From a phage, in sequence record NC_129898.1: a DNA stretch of 64,000 bases; one strand, 5' to 3'. The position numbers and the translations under genes were made by a program. Positions within the stretch are counted from its first letter, which is position 1. Every line of letters starts with the position of its first letter. This document shows positions 9,856-48,227 of the stretch, in pieces. Below the pieces are notes generated by a model. That model had not been told where the DNA came from. It searched no databases and saw nothing but the letters and a program-made list of their open reading frames with translations.

Positions 9856-10140
9856 CTACCAAGTCACTGTCAAGTAGGCAACCGTGTTATTTTTCTCCGG
9901 AGAGATGCCAACAACATCCACCTGCAGACCTCCTGCCCTCAAATCTCCAACGATGTGTGGAAAGTAGTCTGAGAGGTGTGATGGGAGATTTATCGAAAAT
10001 CCACATCCCAGAAAGCCTGCTAACGCTTTATTTTGTATATCCCCTACAATCGCATCATAAATAGAGTTAAGCTCGTCAGGAAGCGTTACAGGACGTTTTA
10101 GAGCTAACTGGTGCAACTTGTCCTTAGCACTCATTTTCAT
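9856..10140 (-). CDS. hypothetical protein
   Basis: Start moved to ATG at 10140 (MKMSAKDK) forming an ATGA overlap with the methyltransferase stop. Confidence 0.4.
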   Translation of the reverse strand: MKMSAKDKLHQLALKRPVTLPDELNSIYDAIVGDIQNKALAGFLGCGFSINLPSHLSDYFPHIVGDLRAGGLQVDVVGISPEKNNTVAYLTVTW

Positions 10141-10670
10141 TTCAAGTCTGCCTCTGGTGGTGCCAACCACATAAATGGCGGCAAGTCTAGACGGTTTTTC
10201 TTGTCCCATACAAAATATGCATATGCCTGCCCATCCGTTCTACCATTGGATTGGAATGACGGACGCTTAGATATTGTGATCACAGTGGTAGGTGCATTAT
10301 CAAGCCACCATTCAAATCTGGCCTTGCTTTCCAGAAAATTAAGACGCAAAAGCATAATAACTACATCGGCATCTTTCAACGCCTTGTCTACAAACTCACG
10401 AGCCAAGCTGTACGGTGGGTTGGTGATAATACAGTCAACATGGTTGTATTCTGTATTCAGATAGTCAACACCTTCTTGGATTTCTCCCCATGCAGATCCT
10501 AACGGCATACGGGAGTAGAACACACCTGAGGCACTATTCCTGCAAGGCTCTAAGTAAGTCCAGTCTTCTGGGAACGGAATAAGGTCATACAGCCCTTCTG
10601 CACACCACTCCGGTGTCACATACTCATCGTAAGCGTTACGTTGTTCATCAGGTTTTCTAGCACAAGTCAT
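10137..10670 (-). CDS. DNA N6-adenine methyltransferase (NPPY motif)
   Basis: DCIITNPPYSL catalytic motif; 177 aa; no adjacent restriction enzyme. Confidence 0.65.
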   Translation of the reverse strand: MTCARKPDEQRNAYDEYVTPEWCAEGLYDLIPFPEDWTYLEPCRNSASGVFYSRMPLGSAWGEIQEGVDYLNTEYNHVDCIITNPPYSLAREFVDKALKDADVVIMLLRLNFLESKARFEWWLDNAPTTVITISKRPSFQSNGRTDGQAYAYFVWDKKNRLDLPPFMWLAPPEADLK

Positions 10671-10688
10671 GCAAATCTCCAGATCATA

Positions 10689-10710
10689 AAAGCCCTCCGA
10701 AGAGGGCTTT
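10689..10710 (-). terminator. terminator-like hairpin
   Basis: AAAGCCCTC-CGAA-GAGGGCTTT perfect 9-bp stem with tetraloop 3' of 10722..11771; weak U-tract. Confidence 0.4.
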
Positions 10711-10721
10711 AGGATTAATGT

Positions 10722-11771
10722 TTAAGCTTCTTCGACAATTCCTGCGCCCAGGATTTTTTCATTGAGCTCTTTTGCTGTTTTAATAATATTGTCCACCAGA
10801 CGCTTACGAGTCTTATCTTTCACCTGAACTTCTTCTCCGCCGTTCAGGGTGGTTTTCAATTGGGACAAAATGTCCTGAAGCTCTACCACAGAGAATCGCT
10901 GCAGATCTTCCGAGGTAATCTCACCCAGTGCAATCTTAACGGTCTCACCACTCTCCATCTGCAGATTCAGGAACACAGTGTGAACATCACCTTTCATACC
11001 ATTTTCTTTTGCAGACTCAACAGCATGAACCAGCTCGTCCAAAGATGTGCATTGGTGAATCTCTGGCAGGCCTGCTTCGCCTAGCACACCTTCTTCATCA
11101 CTTTTTGCCAAAAGCTTTTTCGGTTTCTGTCCATTCTGAATGCGCTGAATGTTTTCATCGTCCAGAATAATAGCACCAGTTCGAGATGCCAGCTCTTCTC
11201 CATCTAACCACACTTCGCCGCCAGCTGTGATGGATGCGATCTCATCTTCTGTTAGCACTCCACCGTAGTATTTTTCGATCAGGCGTTCAAAACGTTTCTT
11301 CCAGTAGTTGACCTGGGTATTCATGTTCACACCGTTACCATAGGTGCCACCTTGATAATAGTGGAACATAAATTCTGTGTCCGGAGCCACAGTTCGTTCT
11401 TTGCAACCCATCCATAAGATTGTTCCTGCTGAACAGCACATCCCTTCAGCGTGTACAACAACGCTTGCCTGAGACTCGCGGAATGCCTGCAAATACGCCA
11501 TAGCAATGTGAACGCAACCACCAGGGCTGTTAATGATTACACGGATACTTTCTTCTGGCTGAGCCATACGAATCGTCTGTAGACGAGACATATGATCTTG
11601 CAGGTCGTCCAAATCGTCAATATAAAGAACGTGGTCAACAACAGGTGTTGGGTAGCTGTATGTTTCCATAATACCACCCGGCATACCAAACATTTTGTTA
11701 CTCATAGGTTCGAAACCGTTCTGTTTTTCTTTCATGCCGTGTACCATGGTGCTGCGAGGTGTTAAATTCAT
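10722..11771 (-). CDS. ClpP/S14-like serine peptidase with ~150-aa C-terminal extension
   Basis: INSPGGCVHIAMAYL and GMCCSAGT (ClpP-type oxyanion/Ser motifs); acidic, helix-rich C-terminal half. Confidence 0.5.
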   Translation of the reverse strand: MNLTPRSTMVHGMKEKQNGFEPMSNKMFGMPGGIMETYSYPTPVVDHVLYIDDLDDLQDHMSRLQTIRMAQPEESIRVIINSPGGCVHIAMAYLQAFRESQASVVVHAEGMCCSAGTILWMGCKERTVAPDTEFMFHYYQGGTYGNGVNMNTQVNYWKKRFERLIEKYYGGVLTEDEIASITAGGEVWLDGEELASRTGAIILDDENIQRIQNGQKPKKLLAKSDEEGVLGEAGLPEIHQCTSLDELVHAVESAKENGMKGDVHTVFLNLQMESGETVKIALGEITSEDLQRFSVVELQDILSQLKTTLNGGEEVQVKDKTRKRLVDNIIKTAKELNEKILGAGIVEEA

Positions 11772-11831: not shown

Positions 11832-12191
11832 TTATTTAGCAATCACTATAGAATACTTACGATTGTCAGAAGCATCACAGCTCAATGATTGCCAGTCTAC
11901 CACATACCACGTATCATTGTCAACAATTACTTTATCGCCTGTTCTGTAGCAGGTGCTGCTTTCAATAATCCTAGACTCGATAAAGAATCTGTGTCGGCGC
12001 TCACGTAGCAACGCTAAGTTGATTATATTACCACCACTGTCCTTGGTCCACACATTCTTGGATCCTTTATTTGCCAAAATTGTCTCGCCGTTATATACAA
12101 ACAGGCAGTATATTTTATTCAGTCTCTCTTGTATTGTAGCCATACTGTGTCCTTCTCCTTGTTTTGTCCAGTAATAATATCTAAAGCTCAC
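11832..12191 (-). CDS. hypothetical protein
   Basis: 119-aa ORF. Confidence 0.45.
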   Translation of the reverse strand: MSFRYYYWTKQGEGHSMATIQERLNKIYCLFVYNGETILANKGSKNVWTKDSGGNIINLALLRERRHRFFIESRIIESSTCYRTGDKVIVDNDTWYVVDWQSLSCDASDNRKYSIVIAK

Positions 12192-12246
12192 CTGTTTGTC
12201 AACAACTGTTTTAGATATTTAAGGGTGGAATAACCACCCTTCTGTA

Positions 12247-13035
12247 TTACTCGGAAACAGGAGTCCAAATATGATTTGCACGATCCTCAATAAGATTGAG
12301 TGCAATCTGACGGCCTAACCCGGAACGAACGACATCGTCTGGACTATCAAAGCTAATCATTCCAACCTCAGGATCTGGATGACGCGTAAAGAAATCTGTC
12401 ACCCATGCAAGGCCAGATTTACCAGGGATGTCACGTTGGCTGTTATCGCCCATAATTACAAGGGTGGCCTGATCAGAGATCCTTGTGATAATTGACAACA
12501 TTTCTTCAGGATTGGTTTGCTGTGCTTCATCAATAAGGACAAAGCATCGTTCATCAAAACTACGACCACGAATGCTTTCAACCTCACAAATCTCGATACG
12601 GCTGTTCTGACCGTCTCCAAGCATTGCTGCAAAAGCACCTTTGCCAACACGACGACAAATCGTGTCCATCATGCTTCTAAGATAGGGCCACAGTTTCTGC
12701 ATTGCATTTCCAGGTTTAAATCCTGAAGTCTTTCCTGTCTGAACGTAAGGGCGTGCAACAATGATCTTATCAATCTCGTTCTTGCGCAGAAGATCCCCTG
12801 CATATGCAGATGCCATGAATGTCTTACCGGATCCAAACACACCGTTTACAATGATAATCTTACGCGACCCTAGATAATCAAGATACTTTTGCTGCTTTTT
12901 ATTCATTGGTCGGAGAGCTGGAGCGGTGTGCTCTCGTTCGTCAGCAAATTTTTCAGCAGCCTTACGCAGGCGATCAGATTTGCGAGCCTCTCTAGCTTCA
13001 TCACGCATGCGTTTTGTTTCTTTAGCTCGACCCAT
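12247..13035 (-). CDS. phoH: PhoH-like ATPase
   Basis: Walker A GVFGSGKTF and Walker B VLIDEAQ in PhoH-like arrangement; 262 aa. Confidence 0.8.
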   Translation of the reverse strand: MGRAKETKRMRDEAREARKSDRLRKAAEKFADEREHTAPALRPMNKKQQKYLDYLGSRKIIIVNGVFGSGKTFMASAYAGDLLRKNEIDKIIVARPYVQTGKTSGFKPGNAMQKLWPYLRSMMDTICRRVGKGAFAAMLGDGQNSRIEICEVESIRGRSFDERCFVLIDEAQQTNPEEMLSIITRISDQATLVIMGDNSQRDIPGKSGLAWVTDFFTRHPDPEVGMISFDSPDDVVRSGLGRQIALNLIEDRANHIWTPVSE

Positions 13036-13424: not shown

Positions 13425-13596
13425 TGTTGCACCCCCTCTTCATCCTCATGATGTTTCTTTTCACGCTTGTGTTTTTTCTTAAGCTCAAGCGCAATCTCTT
13501 TTTTGTACGCCTTCTTCAAGGCCTTTTTAGCCATTTGGCACCTCCTCTGCTTTCATTACGCTAATTATAACCAACTTAACAAGACTTTGTCAACAA

Positions 13597-27302: not shown

Positions 27303-27883
27303 TAAGCATCTGCAAGATCGGCCTTACCTTGTACCAAATTGATCCCATCCAGGAACCCCGGTTCAGATACTTCGCAGGCCTTAACCATCAACTTTTTATC
27401 CATCGTAACAGGTTTCTTCACAGTATGCTCTTTACCTGTCCTTTTGTCAAGCTTTTTCTTCTCCTCAAAAGCAAGTTCTTCAGGAAGATGACTACGAGCA
27501 AACTTTTTGGCAGTTGTTGGTGTCACTGTGTGGACCTTAAACAGGCCGTCATTTTCACAATCTGCTAAAGCATCCCAAAGCATAACTTCAAGACCATAAA
27601 ACAACCCAGCCAGTTCACGTGTGGCATCTCCTCGCGATCCGAAGGAGAGCCCTTCCATAACCACGGTGTCAACGCCGTGCGTGTGGATATAATATCTAAC
27701 CTGTTTGCAGATCCAGTCAATACGCTCAGCAGCTGTTGCAAAAGAAACCGTCCCTGGTTTCTTTTCTTTTGCAGACGAGCTTTGGGTTCGTAACACAACC
27801 TTATGAACAGGCCTACCATCGTCCCATACAACGCAGGCCGTGTGGGTAAGAGACTGGTCTATAGACAGCAGTCTTTCTCTCAT
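27254..27883 (-). CDS. RuvC-like Holliday junction resolvase
   Basis: N-terminal LSIDQSLTHTACVV (catalytic D), C-terminal DLADAYWIG resembling RuvC DAADA. Confidence 0.55.
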   Translation of the reverse strand: MRERLLSIDQSLTHTACVVWDDGRPVHKVVLRTQSSSAKEKKPGTVSFATAAERIDWICKQVRYYIHTHGVDTVVMEGLSFGSRGDATRELAGLFYGLEVMLWDALADCENDGLFKVHTVTPTTAKKFARSHLPEELAFEEKKKLDKRTGKEHTVKKPVTMDKKLMVKACEVSEPGFLDGINLVQGKADLADAYWIGRAHLEGLSQSVK

Positions 27884-28206
27884 GCTGTCTCCTCTTCATC
27901 TGGGGCATAAGCTTTGTCTTTGAACAACACAAGGGAGCAAAGCTTAACATCTGTTTCCACACTGGTAAACATGCATAACCGCTCGCCCTCGATCAGCTCA
28001 CAGTCCTCTTTTAAAACAGCAGACCATACACGATCATCTGCGTAATCATCAGTATACAAGATGTATGCAATAGTGTCATCTTCATACAACCGCCACATAC
28101 CTGTGGCAACAATAAATGTATTTTTTGTTTTAATGGTGCCTGTTGTATGGTCATCCTCAAAAACAGCTTCCATAATTGCATTATCTACAGAGTTTTTAGT
28201 CATCAA
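27880..28206 (-). CDS. hypothetical protein
   Basis: 108-aa ORF. Confidence 0.45.
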   Translation of the reverse strand: MMTKNSVDNAIMEAVFEDDHTTGTIKTKNTFIVATGMWRLYEDDTIAYILYTDDYADDRVWSAVLKEDCELIEGERLCMFTSVETDVKLCSLVLFKDKAYAPDEEETA

Positions 28207-29342
28207 ATTGCTCCAACATTTCTAAGAACATTAACAAGTTTTGTTTGGTCATTGAATGATCGCTTCATATACAAACAGTCGAAAATTATACTCATCCACT
28301 GACCTACGGAAATCCTACGGTCGATACCATTGAAATCAGTATACTTAACGGCACCTTTCGGAAACCATTTTTTATACTGATCAATGATTGCTAACCACAT
28401 CTCCTTCGGTGTGCTGCACTGAGACAGCAAGGAGAATGCAGATGCATCTCCAAACTTTCCTTTACCAATAAGCCCTTGGTAAGGCTTAATATTGTCAGCT
28501 GAGTCACCACATAGCATTTGATAACCGAAGAACAACATTCCATACCCACCAACATCTCCGTTTGGTTTCATGAATATGTTACCCATACCGTTATCAATAA
28601 GCATAGGAGTTTCTCTTACAAAATCACCTTTATCGTTCCTCATCGGATCGAATACAAGCCCAGGAAGTGTTCGCTGGTCCTTATCTATAGAGATAATAAA
28701 CTTGTTGAACTTACCTGTTTTCTGGTAGTGGTTCCAACCTTCAAATTGCTGGATAGCTAACCAGTCGTCAGCTTCAATACCGTTGATCACCTGAGCGTTA
28801 TACTGCTTTTGGAGATACTGTCTTGCATCTTCAAGCAACAGTGGTCGAAGAGTATTGTTACGGTTGGCTTTATATCGTTCCGGCATGGGAAGATCTAGTC
28901 TGAAATTACCTGTGCCTCCAAGCACTCCTACGCACCGATCTTCAGGAATACCAAGATAGTTAAGGACTGCGTTAGCTTTACACTTAATTGTGTGCAAGCA
29001 GTTCTCTACAGGATCAGGGGTTTGGATATCCAAGACATCGAAATCTTCACGTGTCCACGGAATAAACTCCTTGCCAGCTTTTTTACATGCAGCTTCACGG
29101 TTGGTGTTCTCAGCCTTTAACCAACCGCCAACTGCGTTCTTCTGCCTCCCCCAAAACTCTGTTCGTGTTTTGAACACCTTCTTACGTCCGGAGGCTTTAT
29201 GTGTTACCTCAATTGTCCTTTTTTCACAACTTGCTGCAGCTTGATATGCAACCTGATCGAAGTCATAATAAACTATAGCGTCAGGTTCAAGAAGATCAGC
29301 TAGACAATCTATGGACTCAATAAGTGGATATTCTCTACTCAA
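28203..29342 (-). CDS. FEN-family 5'-3' exonuclease / RNase H-like
   Basis: IVYYDFDQVAYQAA, GIEADDWLAIQQF and FIISIDKDQRTL match the three acidic motifs of Pol I 5' nuclease / T4 RNase H. Confidence 0.7.
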   Translation of the reverse strand: MSREYPLIESIDCLADLLEPDAIVYYDFDQVAYQAAASCEKRTIEVTHKASGRKKVFKTRTEFWGRQKNAVGGWLKAENTNREAACKKAGKEFIPWTREDFDVLDIQTPDPVENCLHTIKCKANAVLNYLGIPEDRCVGVLGGTGNFRLDLPMPERYKANRNNTLRPLLLEDARQYLQKQYNAQVINGIEADDWLAIQQFEGWNHYQKTGKFNKFIISIDKDQRTLPGLVFDPMRNDKGDFVRETPMLIDNGMGNIFMKPNGDVGGYGMLFFGYQMLCGDSADNIKPYQGLIGKGKFGDASAFSLLSQCSTPKEMWLAIIDQYKKWFPKGAVKYTDFNGIDRRISVGQWMSIIFDCLYMKRSFNDQTKLVNVLRNVGAI

Positions 29343-41804: not shown

Positions 41805-42088
41805 GAGCCACCGTATTATTAGTTGCTTGCTTGCTTCTGTGCGGATGCGCGACAAGTGTCGAAAAAGAATATAAGATTGATCCTCCGGATGTGGGAAGAT
41901 TGATTGTTAAACCGCCCGAAGGTGCTATGAAGCCTCCTGCTAAAGCTATACCTTTAAAGAAAGGTGCGCCTGATGCGGTGAATTCTGGCATTATGAGGGA
42001 TAATAACCTGTCTTGCAGTAATGATAGGGCTAAATTGATCATTTTGCAAGACTATATTAGAACACTGTTTCCAAAGGAGAGAGGTTAA
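41801..42088 (+). CDS. o-spanin (Rz1-like) lipoprotein candidate
   Basis: Signal peptide with Cys-containing lipobox-like LLLCGCAT, proline-rich mature region (DPPDVG, KPPEG, KPPAK). Confidence 0.55.
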   Translation: MRATVLLVACLLLCGCATSVEKEYKIDPPDVGRLIVKPPEGAMKPPAKAIPLKKGAPDAVNSGIMRDNNLSCSNDRAKLIILQDYIRTLFPKERG

Positions 42089-43635
42089 TGTCTAAGATTT
42101 ACGGACCGTGTTCTGAAAAGCAGAAGATGATCCTTGAAAACGATGCAGACATTCTTGTCATTGGTGGTGCGGCTGGTTCAGGTAAGTCGTTCCTCCTGCA
42201 GTTGATGCCGCTTAAAATTATTGATGATCCGCACAGCTCTGTGGTTATGTTCCGAAGAACAACTCCACAGTTGGAAGGTGAGGGTGGGCTATGGCCTAAA
42301 GCAGTAGCTATTTACAGTGATCTGCCTGAAAACATTAAACCAAAGTTCAGAGAGAAGGATCATAAGTTTATTTTTCCACGGTTTGATCCGAGCACTGGCA
42401 AGTGGGACAGGAGCAAAAAAGGGGCCGTTGTAAAATACTGCCACATGGAGTATGTCCAAGATAAGCTTAACCATCAAGGCCTTGAGTACACCATGGTTTG
42501 CTTCGATGAAGGCACGCAATTCGAATGGGAGCAGATAGACTATTTGATGTCTCGTCTGCGATCTCAGTCAAAGTATCCATCAAGAATGGTTATCAGTTGT
42601 AACCCCGACTCAGAACACATGCTTGCCAAACTGGTTAGGTGGTGGTTGGACGATGAAGGGTATCCAGATCCGGAGAAATGTGGTAAGAAAAGATATTTTA
42701 TCCGACGCGACGGTGAGTTTATCTGGGGAGACTCTAAAGAGGAGTTAATAGAGAAATACACCACGGTTAACGGACTGGGTGTGGAGATCAAGCCAAGACC
42801 GTTGTCATTCTCGTTTATAGGTGCAACAATTTTCGATAATCCTGTCTGCTTGAGAGACAACCCAGAATACCTTGCTTTCCTTGAAGGTCTACCAGAGCTT
42901 GAAAAAGCCCAGCTTCTTCATGGCAACTGGTTTGCCAAACCTGAGGGTGCAAACTATTTCCAAAGATCTTTCCTTCGTGATGCCGATAGAGTACCTCTTG
43001 GATCAGTATCTTGCAGGGCATGGGATAAGGCAGGAACCGAGAGAACTTCCGGTAATAAATTTCCTGACTTTACTGCCAGTGTTAAGGTAAGTAAAGATAG
43101 CGACGGTTTTTATTACCTGTCCGGGGATTATTGTCCTGAGAACGTGGATGACGGTAGGTATTCCACAGGTCTGGAAGGTAAGTTCTGTAAAAAGGCTGGG
43201 GAACGAGATGTGATCATCAGGAAACAGGCGCAGTTTGATGGAGATGATTGCATAATCGTATTTTCTGTGGACCCCGGTCAGGCAGGTAAGAGTGAGTTCT
43301 TAACCTCGTCCAGATCCTTGCTCGCCGAAGGGTTCAGGGTTGAAGAAGATCCGATGCCTTCCAACAAATCTAAACTGACAAGGTTCTCACCTTTTGCCAA
43401 TCTTGCCCAACAAGGAATGGTGAGGATTGTAAAATCCAGTTTCCATCCTGACACTCTGGAAGCATTTTTGACTGAACTTGAAAAGTTCAACGGGGAAAGA
43501 TCAACATTTAACAGAAAAGACGACTGGGCCGACTGTGTAGCTTCTGCGATTAATTTCCTGGAGAAAGAGGAGGTAGCGCTGCCTTGTGTTATTCCATCAA
43601 TCTCATCACCTTCTATGTTCAAGCGTTTTATCTAA
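42088..43635 (+). CDS. terL: terminase large subunit
   Basis: Walker A VIGGAAGSGKS and Walker B MVCFDEGTQ in the N-terminal ATPase; 515 aa; heads the structural module. Confidence 0.85.
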   Translation: MSKIYGPCSEKQKMILENDADILVIGGAAGSGKSFLLQLMPLKIIDDPHSSVVMFRRTTPQLEGEGGLWPKAVAIYSDLPENIKPKFREKDHKFIFPRFDPSTGKWDRSKKGAVVKYCHMEYVQDKLNHQGLEYTMVCFDEGTQFEWEQIDYLMSRLRSQSKYPSRMVISCNPDSEHMLAKLVRWWLDDEGYPDPEKCGKKRYFIRRDGEFIWGDSKEELIEKYTTVNGLGVEIKPRPLSFSFIGATIFDNPVCLRDNPEYLAFLEGLPELEKAQLLHGNWFAKPEGANYFQRSFLRDADRVPLGSVSCRAWDKAGTERTSGNKFPDFTASVKVSKDSDGFYYLSGDYCPENVDDGRYSTGLEGKFCKKAGERDVIIRKQAQFDGDDCIIVFSVDPGQAGKSEFLTSSRSLLAEGFRVEEDPMPSNKSKLTRFSPFANLAQQGMVRIVKSSFHPDTLEAFLTELEKFNGERSTFNRKDDWADCVASAINFLEKEEVALPCVIPSISSPSMFKRFI

Positions 43636-43737: not shown

Positions 43738-45294
43738 GTGTCCAAAAAGAACCGCAGGAAACACAACGCCACAGCCAAAACTGTGAATAAATCTGGGAAC
43801 GCAGGCGCACCAACTCATAATGTTCGTATGAGTGAGATCGGTTCTGGCGCACTTTCCCAAATTATGGCAGAATCACAATCTATGATGGTTGAGGAATTGC
43901 GTTGGCCTCAGCTGATTGCCACAGTGGAGACTATGAAATGTGATTCCACAGTTGCTACTGCCTTAGATACAAAATATGTTTTCATCACGAAAGCATTTAA
44001 TGATTTTAAGATCCTTTATAATGTTAAAAGTGAAGACTCTAAGAAAGCTGCCGAGCTTATAGAGTATTCTTTGCGTAATTTGGCAAACCAGCAAACTCTT
44101 CGAGATATTGCAAGAAGCGCAGCTACCTTTAACGAGTATGGTTTTTCACTGTTTGAGAAAGTATACCGCAGAGAGAAAGAAGGTAAATATGCCGGGATGC
44201 TTCTTATTGATAAAATTGCATTCCGACCTCAGGCCAGTTTGTCCAGATCAGAGCCGTTTGTCTTTGACAAGAATAGTAGAACACTGACAGGTATTTATCA
44301 ATCACCTAATGCATTTCTAAACACGCAGAATGCACGCTGGGCTGGTCCTCTTGCTGCAATGCCTTCAAAAGGCTTTAACGAGCCTGAAATTTTCATCCCT
44401 GCCAAGAAGCTTATGCTCATGACCTTGTCAGGAACAGAGTCTAATCCTGCAGGTGTGTCACCGATGATAGGTTGCTACAGATCTTTCCGTGAGAAAGTTC
44501 TGATTGAAAACCTTGAGGTTGTTGGCTGCTCCAAAGACCTTGGTGGTGTGCTTGAGCTGAAAATTCCTTCCAATATTCTGAACAAGGCCAGCATTGACCC
44601 GAATTCAATGGAAGGGAGAATGGTTGCAGATCTTATGCTTGACGCAGCAAATGCCCACAGTGGGGAGCAAAGTTTCTTTATACTTCCGTCTGATAGAGAT
44701 AAGTCTGGTAAAGAGCTTTACTCCATGACCCTGAAGGGTGTTGACGGCATGGGTAAGCAGTATTCAACTAAAGATTTGATTGATGCCCGTAAGAAGGCGA
44801 TTCTTGACCGTTTCGGTGCTGGATTTATTAACCTCGGTAACGATAACGTTGGATCCTTCTCCCTGTCTGAGTCAAAACAGTCTATCCATGGGCATTTTGT
44901 TCAGCGTGATATAGATATTATCACTGAGGCCTTCAATAAAGATCTTATTCCACAGCTTCTGGCATTGAATGGTATCATCCTTGAAGATGATGATATGCCT
45001 AAACTGAAACCTGGTCTGATTGAAGAAGTGGACATGGAGAGCTTCTCCAAGTTTGTCCAGAGGATCGGTGCTGTAGGTTATTTGCCAAAAACTCCTGCAG
45101 TAATTAATAAGATTCTTGAAGTAGGCGGGTTTGATGAAAGATTTGACGAGGACATGGATCAGGAAGAGCTAATGAAACTCTTGGGCCAGGACATCAGTAG
45201 AGCTGGTGATGGAATGGCTGCAGGATCCACTGGCAACGGCACTTCTAAGATGTCATCAACCAGAGATAACTCCATATCTAACATGGAAAATTAA
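43738..45294 (+). CDS. portal protein candidate
   Basis: 518-aa ORF immediately after the large terminase; size and position typical of portal. Confidence 0.6.
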   Translation: MSKKNRRKHNATAKTVNKSGNAGAPTHNVRMSEIGSGALSQIMAESQSMMVEELRWPQLIATVETMKCDSTVATALDTKYVFITKAFNDFKILYNVKSEDSKKAAELIEYSLRNLANQQTLRDIARSAATFNEYGFSLFEKVYRREKEGKYAGMLLIDKIAFRPQASLSRSEPFVFDKNSRTLTGIYQSPNAFLNTQNARWAGPLAAMPSKGFNEPEIFIPAKKLMLMTLSGTESNPAGVSPMIGCYRSFREKVLIENLEVVGCSKDLGGVLELKIPSNILNKASIDPNSMEGRMVADLMLDAANAHSGEQSFFILPSDRDKSGKELYSMTLKGVDGMGKQYSTKDLIDARKKAILDRFGAGFINLGNDNVGSFSLSESKQSIHGHFVQRDIDIITEAFNKDLIPQLLALNGIILEDDDMPKLKPGLIEEVDMESFSKFVQRIGAVGYLPKTPAVINKILEVGGFDERFDEDMDQEELMKLLGQDISRAGDGMAAGSTGNGTSKMSSTRDNSISNMEN

Positions 45295-45349
45295 AAATTA
45301 TCAACACAGGGGGTTGCAAAACCTCCTTTGGCGTGATAAAATAATCCAC

Positions 45350-45781
45350 ATGGGGAATAAGATGCCACAGGAAGAAATGATTTCCTACGAAATCATCTAC
45401 GAACCTGACACTAAAGATGCTCACGGTGAGTGGATGAGTAAAGACACCATCAAAAAGGCTAAAGATAACTGGGACGCAGCATACGCCGCAGGACTAGTTT
45501 CTGAAAACCTTTTTCACTTGACCTCTACAGATGCTTTCACTATTGAAAAGACGTGGATTCAAGAAGAGTTTGATGTTGTAGTAATTGGCACTGAGCAGGT
45601 CATCAAGGCTGGCTCTTGGGTTGCTAAAGTTAAATACAATAATCCTGAATTATGGGAAGCTAAGAAGGCTGGCATTGTTGGTGGCCTAAGCATTCAGGCA
45701 ACAGGTAATGTTGATGAAGAGACTGGTGAAATTACCAACGTAAACTTCGGGATCAGTGTTGTAGAAGAGGGCAATGAATAA
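45350..45781 (+). CDS. hypothetical head-module protein
   Basis: Track ORF 45206..45781 trimmed to the first ATG after the portal stop. Confidence 0.4.
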   Translation: MGNKMPQEEMISYEIIYEPDTKDAHGEWMSKDTIKKAKDNWDAAYAAGLVSENLFHLTSTDAFTIEKTWIQEEFDVVVIGTEQVIKAGSWVAKVKYNNPELWEAKKAGIVGGLSIQATGNVDEETGEITNVNFGISVVEEGNE

Positions 45782-46758
45782 TGTCTGAAAAAACGATTAC
45801 TATTAAAGAGAAGGGGATTGCCCTGTGCCATAAGGCGCAAGGCTATAGCGCTAACAACAGACCTGTATCTCTTTTGATGAAGAGTGATCTTCAGCCTGAG
45901 CAGTTAACAGACGATATTGTTAAGGCACTTCGCCAAGTTACTGTGGAGCTTAGTTTTGAAGAATACCTGCGTCGTTTCTTCGATATGTGGTATGATGATG
46001 CCAAAGCACTTGCACACATGCTTGGTTTTGAGATTGAAGAGGAAGCTTGGGCTAAAGAGCATCCTGATTGGGAATGGGCGCAAGCTGACGCAGAGTCTTG
46101 TATTGCATGGCTGGAAGAGCGTTGTGATAACGTGACCATTCATAAAGCTGCAAAAGAAGGCAAGCAGCTTAGTGTGGTAGATCAGTACAGCCTGCTAAAA
46201 ACACAACAGATTTTTGAACAAGTAACCGCTGATCTCTTCGATAAAGAAGGGAACCTGATCAAGGCGGTACAGGAACCTACTGAGGTAGATAAAACTACCG
46301 AGGTGGATGATGTTGCAAAATCCGCAAATACCGAGGAGAATCCGGTGGACGTAACCAAAACTAAAGAGTATCTGGATCTGCTGAAGCAAGTAGAAGAGCT
46401 GAAAGCAACCCAGAGTAAAGCTGAAGAAATCATCAAGGCTCAGGTTGAAGTTGAAAAAGCTAAAATGCTGACTAAAGCTCAAGCTTTAAGCTTTGTTGGT
46501 GAAGAAGATCATGCAACCCTGGTTGACTTCATGCTGGAAAAAGCTAACGAACCTATTGTAGCTATGCTGGAGAAAGCTCAAGCCAAAATTGAAGAGCTGG
46601 AAGCAGAGGTGCATAAAACCAAAGAAGAGTTTGCCACCACTGAACATGGTAATGATGGCGAACCTGTTGTGGATGATATTGCAAAATCCGCAGAAGAAAT
46701 TCTTGCTGAAAACGTTGCAAAAGCACTTGCTCGTGCACGTGCAGAATCTACTAAATAA
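45781..46758 (+). CDS. scaffolding protein candidate
   Basis: 325 aa, acidic, long predicted coiled-coil (KTKEYLDLLKQVEELKATQSKAEEIIKAQVEVEKAK); between portal and capsid. Confidence 0.5.
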   Translation: MSEKTITIKEKGIALCHKAQGYSANNRPVSLLMKSDLQPEQLTDDIVKALRQVTVELSFEEYLRRFFDMWYDDAKALAHMLGFEIEEEAWAKEHPDWEWAQADAESCIAWLEERCDNVTIHKAAKEGKQLSVVDQYSLLKTQQIFEQVTADLFDKEGNLIKAVQEPTEVDKTTEVDDVAKSANTEENPVDVTKTKEYLDLLKQVEELKATQSKAEEIIKAQVEVEKAKMLTKAQALSFVGEEDHATLVDFMLEKANEPIVAMLEKAQAKIEELEAEVHKTKEEFATTEHGNDGEPVVDDIAKSAEEILAENVAKALARARAESTK

Positions 46759-46778: not shown

Positions 46779-47168
46779 ATGATTACCGCTCAATATTCTG
46801 ATATCGTGCTCGGCAAAGTTGATTCTAGCGATGCTGGCTACAATTTTAAAGAGATGGAAATTACACTGACAGAGCACCATCATGCTGGTACTGTTGTAAC
46901 AAAAACTGGCACTATCGCTAACGATGATGGCTCAGATGTTTATGGTGTTATTGTAGACCGAGCTCTGGTAAAAGATGCAGGAAAAGTTCATCTCGCTGAG
47001 CCTCTGCAAACAGGCCAGAAATATAAACTGGTTGTTGCAGTTCACGGTGTTACCTTTGCAAAAGATAAGCTGCTGGGGTCTAACGGTGAAGCAGCTAAGC
47101 AGGCTGTTCTTGAAAAGCTTGAAGCTCTGGGTAACAAAGTTCACGTCCAGACTCTTGGTGAAGAGTAA
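46779..47168 (+). CDS. small head protein (decoration protein candidate)
   Basis: 129 aa directly upstream of the major capsid gene; biased codon usage. Confidence 0.35.
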   Translation: MITAQYSDIVLGKVDSSDAGYNFKEMEITLTEHHHAGTVVTKTGTIANDDGSDVYGVIVDRALVKDAGKVHLAEPLQTGQKYKLVVAVHGVTFAKDKLLGSNGEAAKQAVLEKLEALGNKVHVQTLGEE

Positions 47169-47216: not shown

Positions 47217-48227
47217 ATGATTACTCGTAAAGATGAATTTGGCATTGTTGATTTAGGTGCTACTCTGGACCTTGTTCCGCGTCAATTTCGCCTGATCACC
47301 GGTATGGATCTGTTCGAAACTCGTCTTGGCACCTCAACAATTGCTCAGATCGAGCGTGTTGATGAAGTTGTAACCGACATTCCGGCACGCCGTCGTGGCG
47401 GTGAGCGTAACTACGTTGGTAGTGAACGTGCTCAGGTTAAAAACCTGAACATCCCGTTCTTCCCTCTGGACAAAGGCATCACTGCCGCAGATGTTCAGAA
47501 CTTCCGTCGTTACTTCACCCCTGACGCTCCGAAAACTGTTCAGGATGTAGTAACCCGCGTTGTTCGCCGTATCCGTGTTTCTCATGAAGCACTGCGTGAG
47601 AAAGCGCTGTTCCAGGCTATTCTGGGTAAATCCTATGCACCTGGTGACACCACCTGTCAGTATGATTACTACACTCTGTGGGGCGTGTCTCAGAAGTCTG
47701 TTGAGATTGACCCTGCAAAAGCAGATCAGGATCCTATGGAGGTTCTGGAAGAAGCTCGTCTGCACATCGCACTGCAAGCTGGTGATAACGCAGCTGGCTA
47801 CCGTATTGTAGCTCTGTGCTCACCAGAGTTCTTCAGTGCTATTACCCATCACCCGCTGGTAGAACTGGCATACACCTATTACGGCTCTGCTCAGGAACCT
47901 CTGCGTCGCCGTCTGGGTGCTGGCGGTCAGGACAGCGTATACCGTGTGTTTGAACATAAAGGTATCACCTTTATCGAAGATATCTCTGGCAATATTCCTA
48001 AGAAAGAAGCTCGCATTCTGCCGATGGGTATTGATCAGATGTTCCAGCTGCACTTTGCTCCGGCAGATGATGTTAACGAAGCAAACACTCCAGCACAGGA
48101 ACTGTACATGTGGTACAAACACTCTGCATACCTGCGTGAAGAGAAGATTGAATCTGAAACTTCTATGCTGGCAGTTAACACCCGTCCAGAGTTGGTTGTT
48201 AAAGTAACTCTGAAAAACGGTGGCTAA
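47217..48227 (+). CDS. major capsid protein candidate
   Basis: 336 aa; strongly biased codon usage (CTG, CGT, GGT); followed by the strongest terminator in the window. Confidence 0.6.
   Translation: MITRKDEFGIVDLGATLDLVPRQFRLITGMDLFETRLGTSTIAQIERVDEVVTDIPARRRGGERNYVGSERAQVKNLNIPFFPLDKGITAADVQNFRRYFTPDAPKTVQDVVTRVVRRIRVSHEALREKALFQAILGKSYAPGDTTCQYDYYTLWGVSQKSVEIDPAKADQDPMEVLEEARLHIALQAGDNAAGYRIVALCSPEFFSAITHHPLVELAYTYYGSAQEPLRRRLGAGGQDSVYRVFEHKGITFIEDISGNIPKKEARILPMGIDQMFQLHFAPADDVNEANTPAQELYMWYKHSAYLREEKIESETSMLAVNTRPELVVKVTLKNGG

What the first reader, a model, noticed from the sequence alone, without database searches (positions are those of the whole stretch)
10722..11771. ClpP-like peptidase with long C-terminal extension, encoded about 30 kb from the head genes
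Motifs SPGG and CCSAGT indicate a ClpP/S14 fold. The C-terminal ~150 residues are acidic and helix-rich, resembling protease-scaffold fusions of some phages. The head module at 43.7-48.2 kb contains no recognisable protease, so this distant gene may be the prohead protease, or alternatively a phage ClpP analogue that hijacks host ClpX/ClpA.
Basis: partly seen in the sequence, partly recalled or inferred. Interest (0 to 1): 0.45.

Follow-up and report, generated by a model that had tools for sequence, protein, structure and literature searches.

The report
Non-structural phage ClpP-like peptidase gene
This rV5-like E. coli phage gene does encode a ClpP-fold protease with an unusual private tail domain, but it is not the capsid-maturation protease (the head module has its own) and is instead an uncharacterised middle-phase enzyme linked to the phage's PhoH/nucleotide-metabolism genes.

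Summary
Window 10722-11771 (minus strand) encodes a 349-aa protein with a ClpP-fold core (residues 45-215), invariant Ser114/His137 and a conserved C-terminal domain of about 105 aa. It is rV5 gp122 (99.7% identical to phage FV3), long annotated as "ClpP protease subunit".

The premise that the head module lacks a protease is wrong. ORF 45206-45781, between portal and scaffold, is a Peptidase_S78_2 prohead protease with invariant His and Ser.

The ClpP-like gene sits in a sigma70-promoted, terminator-bounded two-gene unit inside the Nrd-PhoH block. In all 12 sampled phage lineages its homologs lie among replication or nucleotide-metabolism genes, never head genes. The ICP1 homolog lies at the end of the gene range whose expression peaks mid-infection. 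Two virion proteomes lack the protein.

Hijacking host ClpX/ClpA is unlikely. The IGF-loop docking pocket is replaced by invariant polar residues, and the catalytic Asp position is Glu or Gln.

The C-domain has no relatives outside the family. In the sister subfamily (Phapecoctavirus, Justusliebigvirus) the same PhoH-adjacent slot holds an HslV-like peptidase instead.

Best reading: a cytoplasmic, self-compartmentalised peptidase of unknown substrate. Interest is moderate.

The parts
10722..11771 (-). ClpP-like peptidase CDS (349 aa plus stop); ortholog of rV5 gp122
   Evidence: ORF. 99.7% identical to the FV3 'ClpP ATP-dependent protease subunit'. PHROG 5410 full length, E=1e-154. Pfam CLP_protease above its cutoff.
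11640..11771 (-). N-terminal region, residues 1-44: predicted disordered, but with a conserved motif (N25, F28, G29, Y40, P41)
   Evidence: pLDDT below 50 for residues 1-43. Invariant columns in the family alignment.
11127..11639 (-). ClpP-fold core, residues 45-215. Ser114 is codon 11430-11432, His137 is codon 11361-11363, and Glu186 (the ClpP Asp171 position) is codon 11214-11216.
   Evidence: AF2 pLDDT 85-93. Foldseek hits to ClpP. Ser and His are invariant and the third position is D/E/Q.
11043..11126 (-). Variable, low-confidence linker (residues 216-243)
   Evidence: pLDDT below 50 for residues 222-240. Length-variable in the alignment.
10725..11042 (-). Family-private C-terminal domain (residues 244-349): helix, beta-hairpin, short helix and two long helices. 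F293, E297 and R322 are invariant.
10686..10707 (-). Intrinsic terminator GCCCTC-TTCG-GAGGGC followed by TTTTAT, 14 nt after the stop codon (equals rV5 t122)
   Evidence: Exact match with zero chance expectation. Sequence read. rV5 Table S4.
12174..12202 (-). Sigma70-type promoter TTGACA-17-TATTAT (11 of 12 positions), equal to rV5 P121. It drives the small ORF and the ClpP-like gene.
   Evidence: Promoter scan. Sequence. rV5 Table S4.
11832..12143 (-). 103-aa ORF of unknown function, the proximal cistron of the same unit (rV5 gp121)
   Evidence: Annotated in relatives. No Pfam hit. SD plus ATG.
12247..13035 (-). PhoH-like P-loop ATPase, a recurrent neighbour of the peptidase gene
   Evidence: Annotation. 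Recurrent PhoH-peptidase linkage.
10137..10670 (-). N6-adenine DNA methyltransferase, the conserved downstream neighbour (orthologous flank in ESCO5, 48% identity)
45206..45781 (+). Head-module Peptidase_S78_2 (XkdF-type) protease, the probable true prohead protease. The alternative start is at 45362.
   Evidence: Pfam 64.6 bits against a cutoff of 24. Invariant D71/H73 and S162. Homolog of the ICP1 'capsid protease'. The CB7 ortholog was detected in virions.
45781..46758 (+). 325-aa scaffold homolog (rV5 gp62; ICP1 gp124 is an experimentally shown scaffold)
   Evidence: rV5 Table S3 homology to the ICP1 protein. ICP1 scaffold experiments. ESCO5 'putative scaffold', 25% identity.
47217..48227 (+). 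Major capsid protein (Phage_cap_E), 336 aa, with no delta domain
   Evidence: Pfam 136.5 bits. Solved homologs include phi92 gp124.

Best explanation
The gene encodes a non-structural ClpP-fold serine peptidase of the rV5 gp122 family (PHROG 5410). This family is the long-tailed branch of a wide class of stand-alone phage 'ATP-dependent protease' genes (PHROG 1827).

Inferred expression: host RNA polymerase transcribes it in the early or middle phase from its own sigma70 promoter, as the second gene of a terminator-bounded two-gene unit inside the RNR-PhoH nucleotide-metabolism block.

Shown: the protein has a ClpP core with an invariant Ser114-His137 pair. Glu or Gln occupies the third triad position.

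Inferred mechanism: it assembles into a ClpP-like chambered ring and cleaves peptides or unfolded proteins in the infected cytoplasm. Its targets are unknown host or phage proteins, not capsid proteins. It does so without docking host ClpX/ClpA, because the hydrophobic IGF/IGL pocket is replaced by invariant charged residues. The private C-terminal domain starts at the very position where that pocket ends (the Leu189 equivalent). It is therefore inferred to sit on the apical face and act as the enzyme's own gating, substrate-recruiting or partner-recruiting module.

Capsid maturation is left to the head-module S78_2 protease and its scaffold. The role appears generic for a 'chambered peptidase', because sister phages carry an HslV-like peptidase in exactly the same PhoH-adjacent slot.
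For: Fold and active site:
- establish the ClpP fold.
- Searches show Ser and His invariant across Vequintavirinae, ICP1 and the T4-, T5-, N4- and Pakpuna-like homologs.

Not head-related:
- The head module has its own S78_2 protease with invariant His and Ser, placed between portal and scaffold. ICP1 gp124 is an experimentally shown scaffold.
- None of 12 sampled lineages has the gene in a head module.
- KVP40-like phages carry it between frd and uvsX. T4-type phages have their own gp21 prohead protease (established knowledge).
- In ICP1 RNA-seq, the nucleotide-metabolism genes that peak at 12 min lie in the range gp176-gp211. The capsid operon gp122-126, including protease gp125, is late.
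- The protein is absent from the rV5 and CB7 virion MS lists. The CB7 head protease and scaffold homolog were detected.

Transcription unit: sigma70 promoter, SD sequences and terminator.

No ClpX/A docking: E. coli ClpP Y60, Y62, F82, I90, M92, F112 and L114 correspond to R77, I, E99, H107, E109, T and A/S, and L48/F49 are deleted. The reference sequence was validated and the pocket residue list was taken from the literature.

Private C-domain.

Displacement by another peptidase:
- ESCO5 has no ClpP-like ORF anywhere in its genome but has an HslV homolog in the same slot, with orthologous flanks.
- The same arrangement occurs in Justusliebigvirus, Shewanella phage 1/4 and Aeromonas 4L372D.
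Against: - No biochemical or genetic data exist for any member; none turned up in the searchable literature.
- The oligomeric state was not modelled.
- The third triad residue is not a conserved acid in this subfamily (E or Q), so activity could be reduced or differently regulated.
- Pocket loss is inferred from alignment, not from a complex model.
- The conserved N-terminal motif could still contact an unfoldase in a non-canonical way.
- Absence from virion proteomes does not exclude a transient role in procapsids, since proteases usually leave.
- The expression timing is borrowed from ICP1 and from promoter type, not measured in this phage.
Confidence: 0.6

Rival explanations
1. It is the prohead (capsid maturation) protease, or a second one. 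The C-terminal domain would act as a scaffold-like targeting module that carries it into procapsids.
For: NCBIfam's best hit is 'head maturation protease, ClpP-related' (65.6 bits). Several 'head maturation protease' PHROGs match the core. Many prohead proteases carry C-terminal targeting segments (established knowledge). Proteases often escape virion MS.
Against: The NCBIfam score is below the family cutoff of 120, and the best PHROGs are the non-head families 5410 and 1827. The head module already has an S78_2 protease plus scaffold. The gene lies in a sigma70-promoted unit 32 kb away on the opposite strand. None of 12 lineages has it in a head module, and T4-like carriers have their own gp21 prohead protease. 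ICP1's homolog lies in the mid-infection gene range rather than the late capsid operon. ESCO5 builds a homologous head (MCP 42% identical) with no ClpP-like gene at all. The C-domain matches no scaffold.
Confidence: 0.05
2. It is a phage ClpP analogue that docks onto host ClpX and/or ClpA, or forms mixed rings with host ClpP, to redirect ATP-dependent degradation.
For: True ClpP fold with handle helix. Ser and His are retained. Expression is cytoplasmic and non-structural. The subfamily has a conserved N-terminal motif. Databases traditionally annotate it as an 'ATP-dependent protease subunit'.
Against: Most of the ADEP/IGF pocket positions checked are polar, charged or deleted, and several are invariant as such: R77, E99, H107, E109. 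The short homologs lack N-terminal axial loops altogether. The C-terminal domain emerges at the pocket and would crowd the docking face (inference). Cellular ClpP models score 21-41 bits against cutoffs of 228-361. The same slot can be filled by HslV, whose partner would be a different unfoldase.
Confidence: 0.12
3. It is the proteolytic half of a phage-specific module whose partner is encoded nearby: the PhoH-like ATPase and/or the small upstream ORF. The C-terminal domain would mediate that interaction.
For: PhoH lies within 0-5 ORFs of the peptidase in the Vequintavirus window, Certrevirus, ICP1, Vibrio eugene 12A10, Pseudoalteromonas PH357 and Pseudomonas UAVern (ClpP-like). It also does so in Phapecoctavirus, Justusliebigvirus, Shewanella 1/4 and Aeromonas 4L372D (HslV-like). 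The gene forms a two-gene unit with a small ORF. A similar C-terminal helix motif occurs in both peptidase types (hhalign P=0.012; 99 of 100 shuffles score lower).
Against: PhoH is a helicase-like P-loop ATPase, not a known unfoldase (established knowledge; the PADLOC hits are helicase-like). T4-, T5-, N4- and Pakpuna-like carriers lack an adjacent PhoH. The linkage may be inherited synteny within one supergroup that shares head genes. The small ORFs are not conserved between lineages. The motif was found post hoc, and HHsuite gives it a probability of only 3.6%.
Confidence: 0.12
4. It is a catalytically dead or weak ClpP-fold protein that acts as a structural or regulatory factor rather than as a protease.
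For: The Asp171 equivalent is Glu or Gln in this subfamily, and the neighbouring Arg170 position is Gly.
Against: Ser114, His137 and the surrounding motifs (INSPGG, CSAGT, MFH) are invariant over 40-96% identity, and in distant lineages that keep Asp. Such conservation is typical of active enzymes.
Confidence: 0.05

Closest known systems
Cellular ClpP (MEROPS S14; E. coli ClpP, PDB 1TYF)
   Same: Same fold, including the handle helix (Foldseek target-normalised TM 0.65-0.76). The catalytic Ser and His are in register, with INSPGG and (C/A)S(A/M)G motifs.
   Different: About 20% identity, and far below the ClpP model cutoffs. Asp171 is replaced by Glu or Gln. The IGF/ADEP hydrophobic pocket is not conserved and helix B has a 5-residue deletion. 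The N-terminus differs. An extra 135-aa linker plus domain follows the core. The gene is phage-encoded and has no cognate Clp ATPase gene beside it.
Stand-alone phage ClpP-like 'ATP-dependent protease' genes (PHROG 1827: ICP1 gp211, KVP40-like, T5-like, N4-like and Pakpunavirus homologs)
   Same: Homologous core (E=2e-38 to the PHROG; 35% identity to ICP1 gp211). Same non-structural placement among replication and nucleotide-metabolism genes, and the same loss of the ClpX pocket.
   Different: Most are 180-240 aa without the C-domain. The extensions in ICP1, eugene, PH357 and ValKK3 are unrelated in sequence. Most keep Asp at the third triad position. None has been characterised experimentally, as far as the searchable literature shows.
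ClpP-related phage head maturation proteases and protease-scaffold or protease-MCP fusions (NCBIfam NF045542 and NF045540; PHROGs 1684, 94, 133)
   Same: ClpP-fold core with comparable HMM similarity (65.6 and 58.7 bits). Like them it has a C-terminal extension and lacks ClpX-docking features.
   Different: Below the family cutoffs of 120 and 475. Not in a head module, and not late by promoter type or by the ICP1 homolog. The head module has a different protease (S78_2). The C-domain is unrelated to any scaffold or capsid family.
Phage HslV-like peptidases (ESCO5 gp077, phAPEC8, Justusliebigvirus, Shewanella 1/4)
   Same: They occupy the same syntenic slot (PhoH - x - peptidase - x - N6-MTase) in sister phages with orthologous flanks and head genes. 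They are also chambered-peptidase folds with an acidic C-terminal extension, and may share a helix motif.
   Different: Unrelated fold and chemistry: an Ntn hydrolase with a Thr1 nucleophile. This is analogy, not homology.
Lambda gpC / SppA (MEROPS S49)
   Same: Distant ClpP/crotonase-superfamily relationship.
   Different: SppA models score only 13-16 bits against cutoffs of 155-746. It is not an S49 member.

Membership tests
ClpP / MEROPS S14 (ATP-dependent Clp protease proteolytic subunit) | ClpP fold / Pfam CLP_protease domain | tested here: met
   PF00574 scores 51.1 bits against a cutoff of 20.2. The Foldseek top 50 are all ClpP, with target-normalised TM 0.57-0.76.
ClpP / MEROPS S14 (ATP-dependent Clp protease proteolytic subunit) | Catalytic Ser and His in register | tested here: met
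   Ser114 and His137 align to Ser97 and His122 and are invariant in 31 family members and 7 distant phage homologs.
ClpP / MEROPS S14 (ATP-dependent Clp protease proteolytic subunit) | Catalytic Asp (Asp171) completing the triad | tested here: not met
   The position is Glu in this phage and Glu or Gln across Vequintavirinae. Asp is retained in the ICP1, T4-, T5- and N4-like homologs and in UAVern; PAK_P2 has Glu.
ClpP / MEROPS S14 (ATP-dependent Clp protease proteolytic subunit) | Hydrophobic apical pocket that binds the IGF/IGL loops of ClpX/ClpA (L48, F49, Y60, Y62, F82, I90, M92, L114, L189) | tested here: not met
   Y60->R77, Y62->I, F82->E99, I90->H107, M92->E109, L114->A/S, and L48/F49 deleted. 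Only L189 is kept. The residue list comes and the reference sequence was validated.
ClpP / MEROPS S14 (ATP-dependent Clp protease proteolytic subunit) | N-terminal axial gating loops | tested here: inconclusive
   Residues 1-43 are predicted disordered and align only loosely to the ClpP N-terminus. The short homologs lack the segment.
ClpP / MEROPS S14 (ATP-dependent Clp protease proteolytic subunit) | Curated ClpP model thresholds (TIGR00493, PRK00277 and others) | tested here: not met
   21-41 bits against cutoffs of 228-361.
ClpP / MEROPS S14 (ATP-dependent Clp protease proteolytic subunit) | Heptameric or tetradecameric chamber | not testable with these tools
   No multimer prediction or coordinates were available.
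ClpP-related phage head maturation protease (NF045542) / protease-scaffold fusion | Family HMM threshold | tested here: not met
   65.6 bits against a cutoff of 120. The fusion model NF045540 scores 58.7 against 475.
ClpP-related phage head maturation protease (NF045542) / protease-scaffold fusion | Gene located in the head module next to portal, scaffold or MCP | tested here: not met
   The gene is 32 kb away on the other strand, in the Nrd-PhoH block. None of 12 sampled lineages has it in a head module.
ClpP-related phage head maturation protease (NF045542) / protease-scaffold fusion | It is the only or needed protease of the head module | tested here: not met
   An S78_2 protease is present in the head module. 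ESCO5 has homologous head genes and no ClpP-like gene.
ClpP-related phage head maturation protease (NF045542) / protease-scaffold fusion | Late expression with the structural genes | tested here: inconclusive
   Sigma70 consensus promoter and own terminator. ICP1 gp211 lies in the range whose nucleotide-metabolism genes peak at 12 min, whereas the capsid operon is late. No transcriptome exists for this phage.
ClpP-related phage head maturation protease (NF045542) / protease-scaffold fusion | Scaffold-like or capsid-binding C-terminal segment | tested here: not met
ClpP-related phage head maturation protease (NF045542) / protease-scaffold fusion | Presence in proheads | not testable with these tools
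   Only mature-virion MS is available in the literature (rV5, CB7), and the protein is not listed there.
SppA / lambda gpC (MEROPS S49) | Family HMM thresholds | tested here: not met
   TIGR00706 scores 15.6 against 155, and PRK10949 scores 12.9 against 746.
PHROG 5410 / 1827 non-structural phage 'ATP-dependent protease' | Full-length profile match | tested here: met
   phrog_5410 E=1.1e-154 over residues 24-345; phrog_1827 E=2.2e-38 over the core.

The most novel reading that the evidence does not exclude
Large virulent phages of the rV5/ICP1/phAPEC8 supergroup may carry a conserved 'PhoH plus chambered peptidase' module. In it a ClpP-fold or an HslV-fold peptidase is interchangeable. Each carries a C-terminal helix (D-L-x-x-F-S-x-x-E-L-x-x-[IL]-L) that would recruit it to a common partner, either the PhoH-like ATPase or another shared factor. 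That would make a previously unrecognised phage-encoded regulated protease and give phage phoH a concrete function.
Probability: 0.1. Interest if true: 0.75.

Novelty: new variant of a known kind. Interest (0 to 1): 0.42.

Why it matters
The gene itself is not new. It has been annotated as "ClpP protease subunit" in rV5-like phages for over a decade.

What matters is the correction and the context:
- It should not be taken for the prohead protease. The real candidate, an S78_2 protease, is mislabelled "DNA methyltransferase" in several reference records.
- It should not be assumed to work with host ClpX/ClpA.
- It belongs to a large, uncharacterised class of non-structural chambered peptidases that virulent phages place among their nucleotide-metabolism genes.
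- An unrelated HslV-type peptidase can replace it in the very same PhoH-adjacent slot.

That recurrent pairing offers a testable handle on two open questions: what phage-encoded ClpP/HslV homologs do during infection, and what phage phoH, a widely used marker gene of unknown function, is for.

Tried and rejected
- **Prohead protease or protease-scaffold fusion.** Rejected on head-module content, gene context, timing, proteomes and the ESCO5 'natural knockout'.
- **S49 / SppA.** Rejected on HMM scores.
- **Anti-phage-defence relatives.** PADLOC gave nothing meaningful.
- **Shared C-terminal extensions.** BLAST comparison of the extensions of ICP1, eugene, PH357, ValKK3 and PcCB7V found no significant similarity.
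- **A conserved small partner ORF between PhoH and the peptidase.** Matches occur only within close lineages (ICP1 gp210 with eugene_182; PAK_P2 with UAVern), never across to this window.
- **PDB search with the S78_2 ORF.** Nothing found.
- **Literature searches for functional work on phage ClpP-like proteins.** Nothing relevant.
- **Artefact in the shuffle controls.** One hhalign column-shuffle control gave a spurious score of 130 from a 10-column end-gap alignment. It was treated as an artefact.
Full report
**Identity of the window and the ORF.** The region is 98% identical at the DNA level to Escherichia phage FV3 and 95% to rV5-like phages of the genus Vequintavirus. A minus-strand ORF at 10722..11771 encodes 349 aa. 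A TAAGGA Shine-Dalgarno sequence lies 7 nt before its ATG. The protein is 99.7% identical to the FV3 "ClpP ATP-dependent protease subunit". It corresponds to rV5 gp122 (349 aa; Table S3 of PMC3606486).

**Fold and family.** Pfam CLP_protease matches residues 59-168 at 51.1 bits, against a gathering score of 20.2.
- S49/SppA models score only 13-16 bits, far below their cutoffs.
- Cellular ClpP models score 21-41 bits against cutoffs of 228-361.
- The ClpP-related head-maturation model NF045542 scores 65.6 bits against 120.
- The best PHROGs are 5410 (full length, E=1e-154) and 1827 (core, E=2e-38), both labelled "ATP-dependent protease". Head-maturation-protease PHROGs follow at E=1e-24 or weaker.

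An AlphaFold2 model built on 31 family sequences gives four segments:
- a confident ClpP core (residues 45-215, pLDDT 85-93);
- a disordered N-terminus (residues 1-43);
- a disordered linker (residues 222-240);
- a moderately confident C-terminal domain.

Foldseek against the PDB returns only ClpP structures, with target-normalised TM 0.57-0.76 over 160-174 columns for nearly all.

**Active site and docking features.** I validated an E. coli ClpP reference as 100% identical to 1TYF. I then aligned it with the family and with seven distant phage homologs.
- Ser97 and His122 correspond to Ser114 and His137 and are invariant everywhere.
- The Asp171 position is Glu in this phage and Glu or Gln across Vequintavirinae. 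It is Asp in ICP1, UAVern and the T4-, T5- and N4-like homologs, and Glu in PAK_P2.
- The residues that form the ADEP/IGF-loop pocket are listed in bioRxiv 10.1101/2023.03.01.530711. They are not conserved: Y60->R77, Y62->I, F82->E99, I90->H107, M92->E109, L114->A/S, and L48/F49 fall in a deletion. Only L189 is kept. F112 (from memory, not in that list) corresponds to Thr. R77, E99, H107 and E109 are invariant in the family.
- The short homologs have almost no N-terminal segment before strand 1.

Together these features argue against canonical docking of host ClpX/ClpA.

**The C-terminal extension.** Residues 200-349 are acidic (net -10, pI 4.8), but so is the core. The domain (residues 244-349) is predicted as helix, beta-hairpin, short helix and two long helices. 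F293, E297 and R322 are invariant. Four independent searches found no relative outside the family:
- A profile of the domain, searched against 1.84 billion representative proteins, found only the same family. The other hits are long repeat proteins.
- PHROGs gave only phrog_5410 above noise.
- Foldseek against BFVD returned one significant match, a 303-aa unnamed protein that I take to be a family member.

The domain is therefore family-private and shows no relationship to known scaffolds. ICP1, Vibrio eugene 12A10, Pseudoalteromonas PH357 and ValKK3 homologs also carry C-terminal extensions, but these are unrelated in sequence.

**The head module does contain a protease.** The plus-strand module reads as follows:

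| Coordinates | Product |
|---|---|
| 42088-43635 | TerL |
| 43738-45294 | portal |
| 45206(45362)-45781 | S78_2 protease ORF |
| 45781-46758 | 325-aa scaffold homolog |
| 46779-47168 | decoration protein |
| 47217-48227 | MCP (Phage_cap_E) |

- The protease ORF hits Pfam Peptidase_S78_2 at 64.6 bits against a cutoff of 24. Its family has an invariant D-x-H (D71/H73) and an invariant GGLS (S162). That is the His/Ser pair expected of HK97-type prohead proteases (established knowledge).
- It is 40% identical to the ICP1 "capsid protease".
- Its Certrevirus ortholog CB7_5 was detected in virions (PMC7344957).
- The 325-aa ORF is the homolog of ICP1 gp124 (rV5 Table S3). ICP1 gp124 has been shown experimentally to be a scaffold and is itself cleaved (PMC10002752).
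- The MCP is 336 aa and has no delta domain.

The module is therefore self-sufficient.

**Gene context and timing.** The ClpP-like gene lies on the opposite strand, 32 kb away. The local gene order is NrdAB-Grx-NrdD-NrdG-x-PhoH-x-ClpP-N6 MTase. It forms a compact transcription unit:
- a sigma70-type promoter TTGACA-17-TATTAT at 12202-12174;
- a 103-aa ORF (11832-12143);
- the ClpP-like gene;
- a perfect hairpin terminator GCCCTC-TTCG-GAGGGC-TTTTAT at 10707-10686.

The promoter and terminator match rV5's published P121 and t122. They differ from rV5's proposed late-promoter motif.

I sampled homolog contexts in annotated genomes:

| Phage (lineage) | Context of the ClpP-like gene |
|---|---|
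| ICP1 | NrdAB ... PhoH - 2 ORFs - gp211 ... ligase |
| PcCB7V (Certrevirus) | PhoH - 4 ORFs - ClpP - MTase |
| Vibrio eugene 12A10 | NrdB ... PhoH - x - ClpP ... ligase |
| Pseudoalteromonas PH357 | NrdAB ... PhoH - ClpP |
| Pseudomonas UAVern | PhoH overlapping ClpP |
| Alteromonas AD45-P3 | DNA pol - RNR alpha/beta - x - ClpP |
| ValKK3 (KVP40-like) | frd - ClpP - uvsX |
| T5-like (Kpn2-P1, Erwinia KEY) | dNMP kinase - ClpP - holin |
| PAK_P2 | small early ORFs |
| pVa5 (N4-like) | small early ORFs |

None is in a head module.

In ICP1 RNA-seq, the nucleotide-metabolism genes that peak at 12 min lie within the range gp176-gp211. The capsid operon gp122-126, including the predicted protease gp125, is late (PMC7567579).

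rV5 virion MS found MCP, decoration protein, gp62 and portal, but not gp122. CB7 virion MS lists 26 proteins. All but CB7_55 are encoded in the structural gene region (region 1), and CB7_55 is a 26.5-kDa protein not conserved within the genus.

**Displacement by an unrelated peptidase.** Escherichia phage ESCO5 (Phapecoctavirus) has a homologous head module: S78_2 40%, scaffold 25% and MCP 42% identical. Its flanks are orthologous too (N6 MTase 48%, PhoH 24%). Its whole genome nevertheless has no ClpP-like ORF; the best profile E-value is about 1. The slot PhoH-x--x-MTase instead holds gp077.
- gp077 is an HslV homolog: Pfam Proteasome 25.6 bits against 22.4, and PDB HslV hits down to 5e-9.
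- Its N-terminus reads TTII, so the catalytic Thr1 is retained.
- The same arrangement is seen in Justusliebigvirus, Shewanella phage 1/4 (PhoH-HslV ... ligase) and Aeromonas 4L372D.
- In all, 234 phage records carry such a gene.

This non-orthologous replacement in situ implies that the selected function is a cytoplasmic chambered peptidase associated with the PhoH/nucleotide-metabolism block. It is not a capsid-related function.

**A possible shared motif.** The HslV-like proteins also have an acidic C-terminal extension. Its conserved element, ELTDDDLENFSKEELINLL, has T163 nearly invariant and E173 and L175 invariant. It resembles the invariant core of the ClpP-like C-domain, EITSEDLQRFSVVELQDIL.
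- Profile-profile alignment picks exactly this 19-column stretch: score 20.4, P=0.012, HHsuite probability 3.6%.
- 99 of 100 column-shuffled controls scored lower, mostly 5-10. The one exception is an evident end-gap artefact.
- The short regex occurs about once per 8,000-10,000 residues of six-frame ORFs in both genomes.

Because the motif was defined post hoc, I treat it as suggestive only.

**Conclusion.**
- The prohead-protease reading is very unlikely.
- The ClpX/ClpA-hijack reading is disfavoured by the loss of the docking pocket.
- The best-supported explanation is a non-structural, early- or middle-phase, self-compartmentalised ClpP-fold peptidase. Its private C-terminal domain probably provides its own gating or recruitment function. 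Substrates are unknown.
- The gene is already annotated, and no experimental work was found.
- The new elements are the exclusion of the two proposed roles, the family-private domain, and the recurrent PhoH-peptidase pairing with ClpP/HslV interchange.

Noticed in passing
window 45206-45781 (+): The head-module Peptidase_S78_2 protease ORF is labelled 'DNA methyltransferase' in several RefSeq and PHROG-derived annotations (phrog_1530; FV3, rV5, CR3 and ESCO5 records). Pfam, its position between portal and scaffold, and its invariant His and Ser indicate a prohead protease. Two starts are in use: GTG 45206 (190-191 aa, overlapping the portal gene) and 45362 (139 aa). Most homologs are about 208 aa, which favours the long form.
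   Followed up: partly
L015 (ESCO5) 27546-28238; L018 3001-3654; L019 3001-3723; L020 2432-3885: HslV-like (proteasome-fold) peptidase genes occupy the PhoH-adjacent slot in Phapecoctavirus, Justusliebigvirus, Shewanella phage 1/4 and Aeromonas 4L372D (a tandem pair in the last). They take the place held by the ClpP-like gene in Vequintavirinae and ICP1. Among Escherichia phage records the counts are 218 with the S78_2 protease, 107 with ClpP-like and 107 with HslV-like.
   Followed up: yes
window 10887-10943 (residues 277-295 region of the C-domain) and L015 27546-28238, residues 161-179: A similar helix motif (D-L-x-x-F-S-x-x-E-L-x-x-[IL]-L) occurs in the C-terminal extensions of the unrelated ClpP-like and HslV-like peptidases. 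hhalign gives P=0.012, and 99 of 100 shuffles score lower. The motif was found post hoc.
   Followed up: partly
protein P0233 (Escherichia phage VEcB, vecB_055): A 267-aa ORF joins the N-terminal Walker-A part of PhoH to the C-terminal half of the HslV-like peptidase. This looks like a deletion that removed the PhoH C-terminus, the intervening ORF and the HslV catalytic Thr1. If the sequence is correct, both genes are dispensable for propagation.
   Followed up: no
window 11832-12143 (-): A 103-aa ORF with no Pfam match is co-transcribed with the ClpP-like gene (shared sigma70 promoter and terminator). A differently sized, unrelated ORF sits at the same place before the HslV-like gene in ESCO5 and JohannJBalmer, where it abuts or overlaps the peptidase gene's start.
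   Followed up: partly
window 13564-13593 (-): A perfect 12/12 sigma70 consensus promoter (TTGACA-18-TATAAT) lies just downstream of nrdG and upstream of the ORFs preceding phoH. It corresponds to rV5 P118.
   Followed up: no
window 12210-12240 (-): A hairpin GGGTGG-TTATT-CCACCC lies directly after the phoH stop codon and before the P121-type promoter. It may be a weak terminator that separates phoH from the peptidase unit.
   Followed up: no
window ~36000 (strand switch): GC skew changes sign near 36 kb. This coincides with the divergence between the minus-strand early/middle genes and the plus-strand tRNA and structural genes.
   Followed up: no
phage records labelled 'Campylobacter phage' (e.g. 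MG065646, MG065666, MG065656): About 18-23 GenBank records named Campylobacter phages are 95-96% identical to rV5-like or Phapecoctavirus E. coli phages. The host labels are probably wrong or reflect contaminating coliphages.
   Followed up: no
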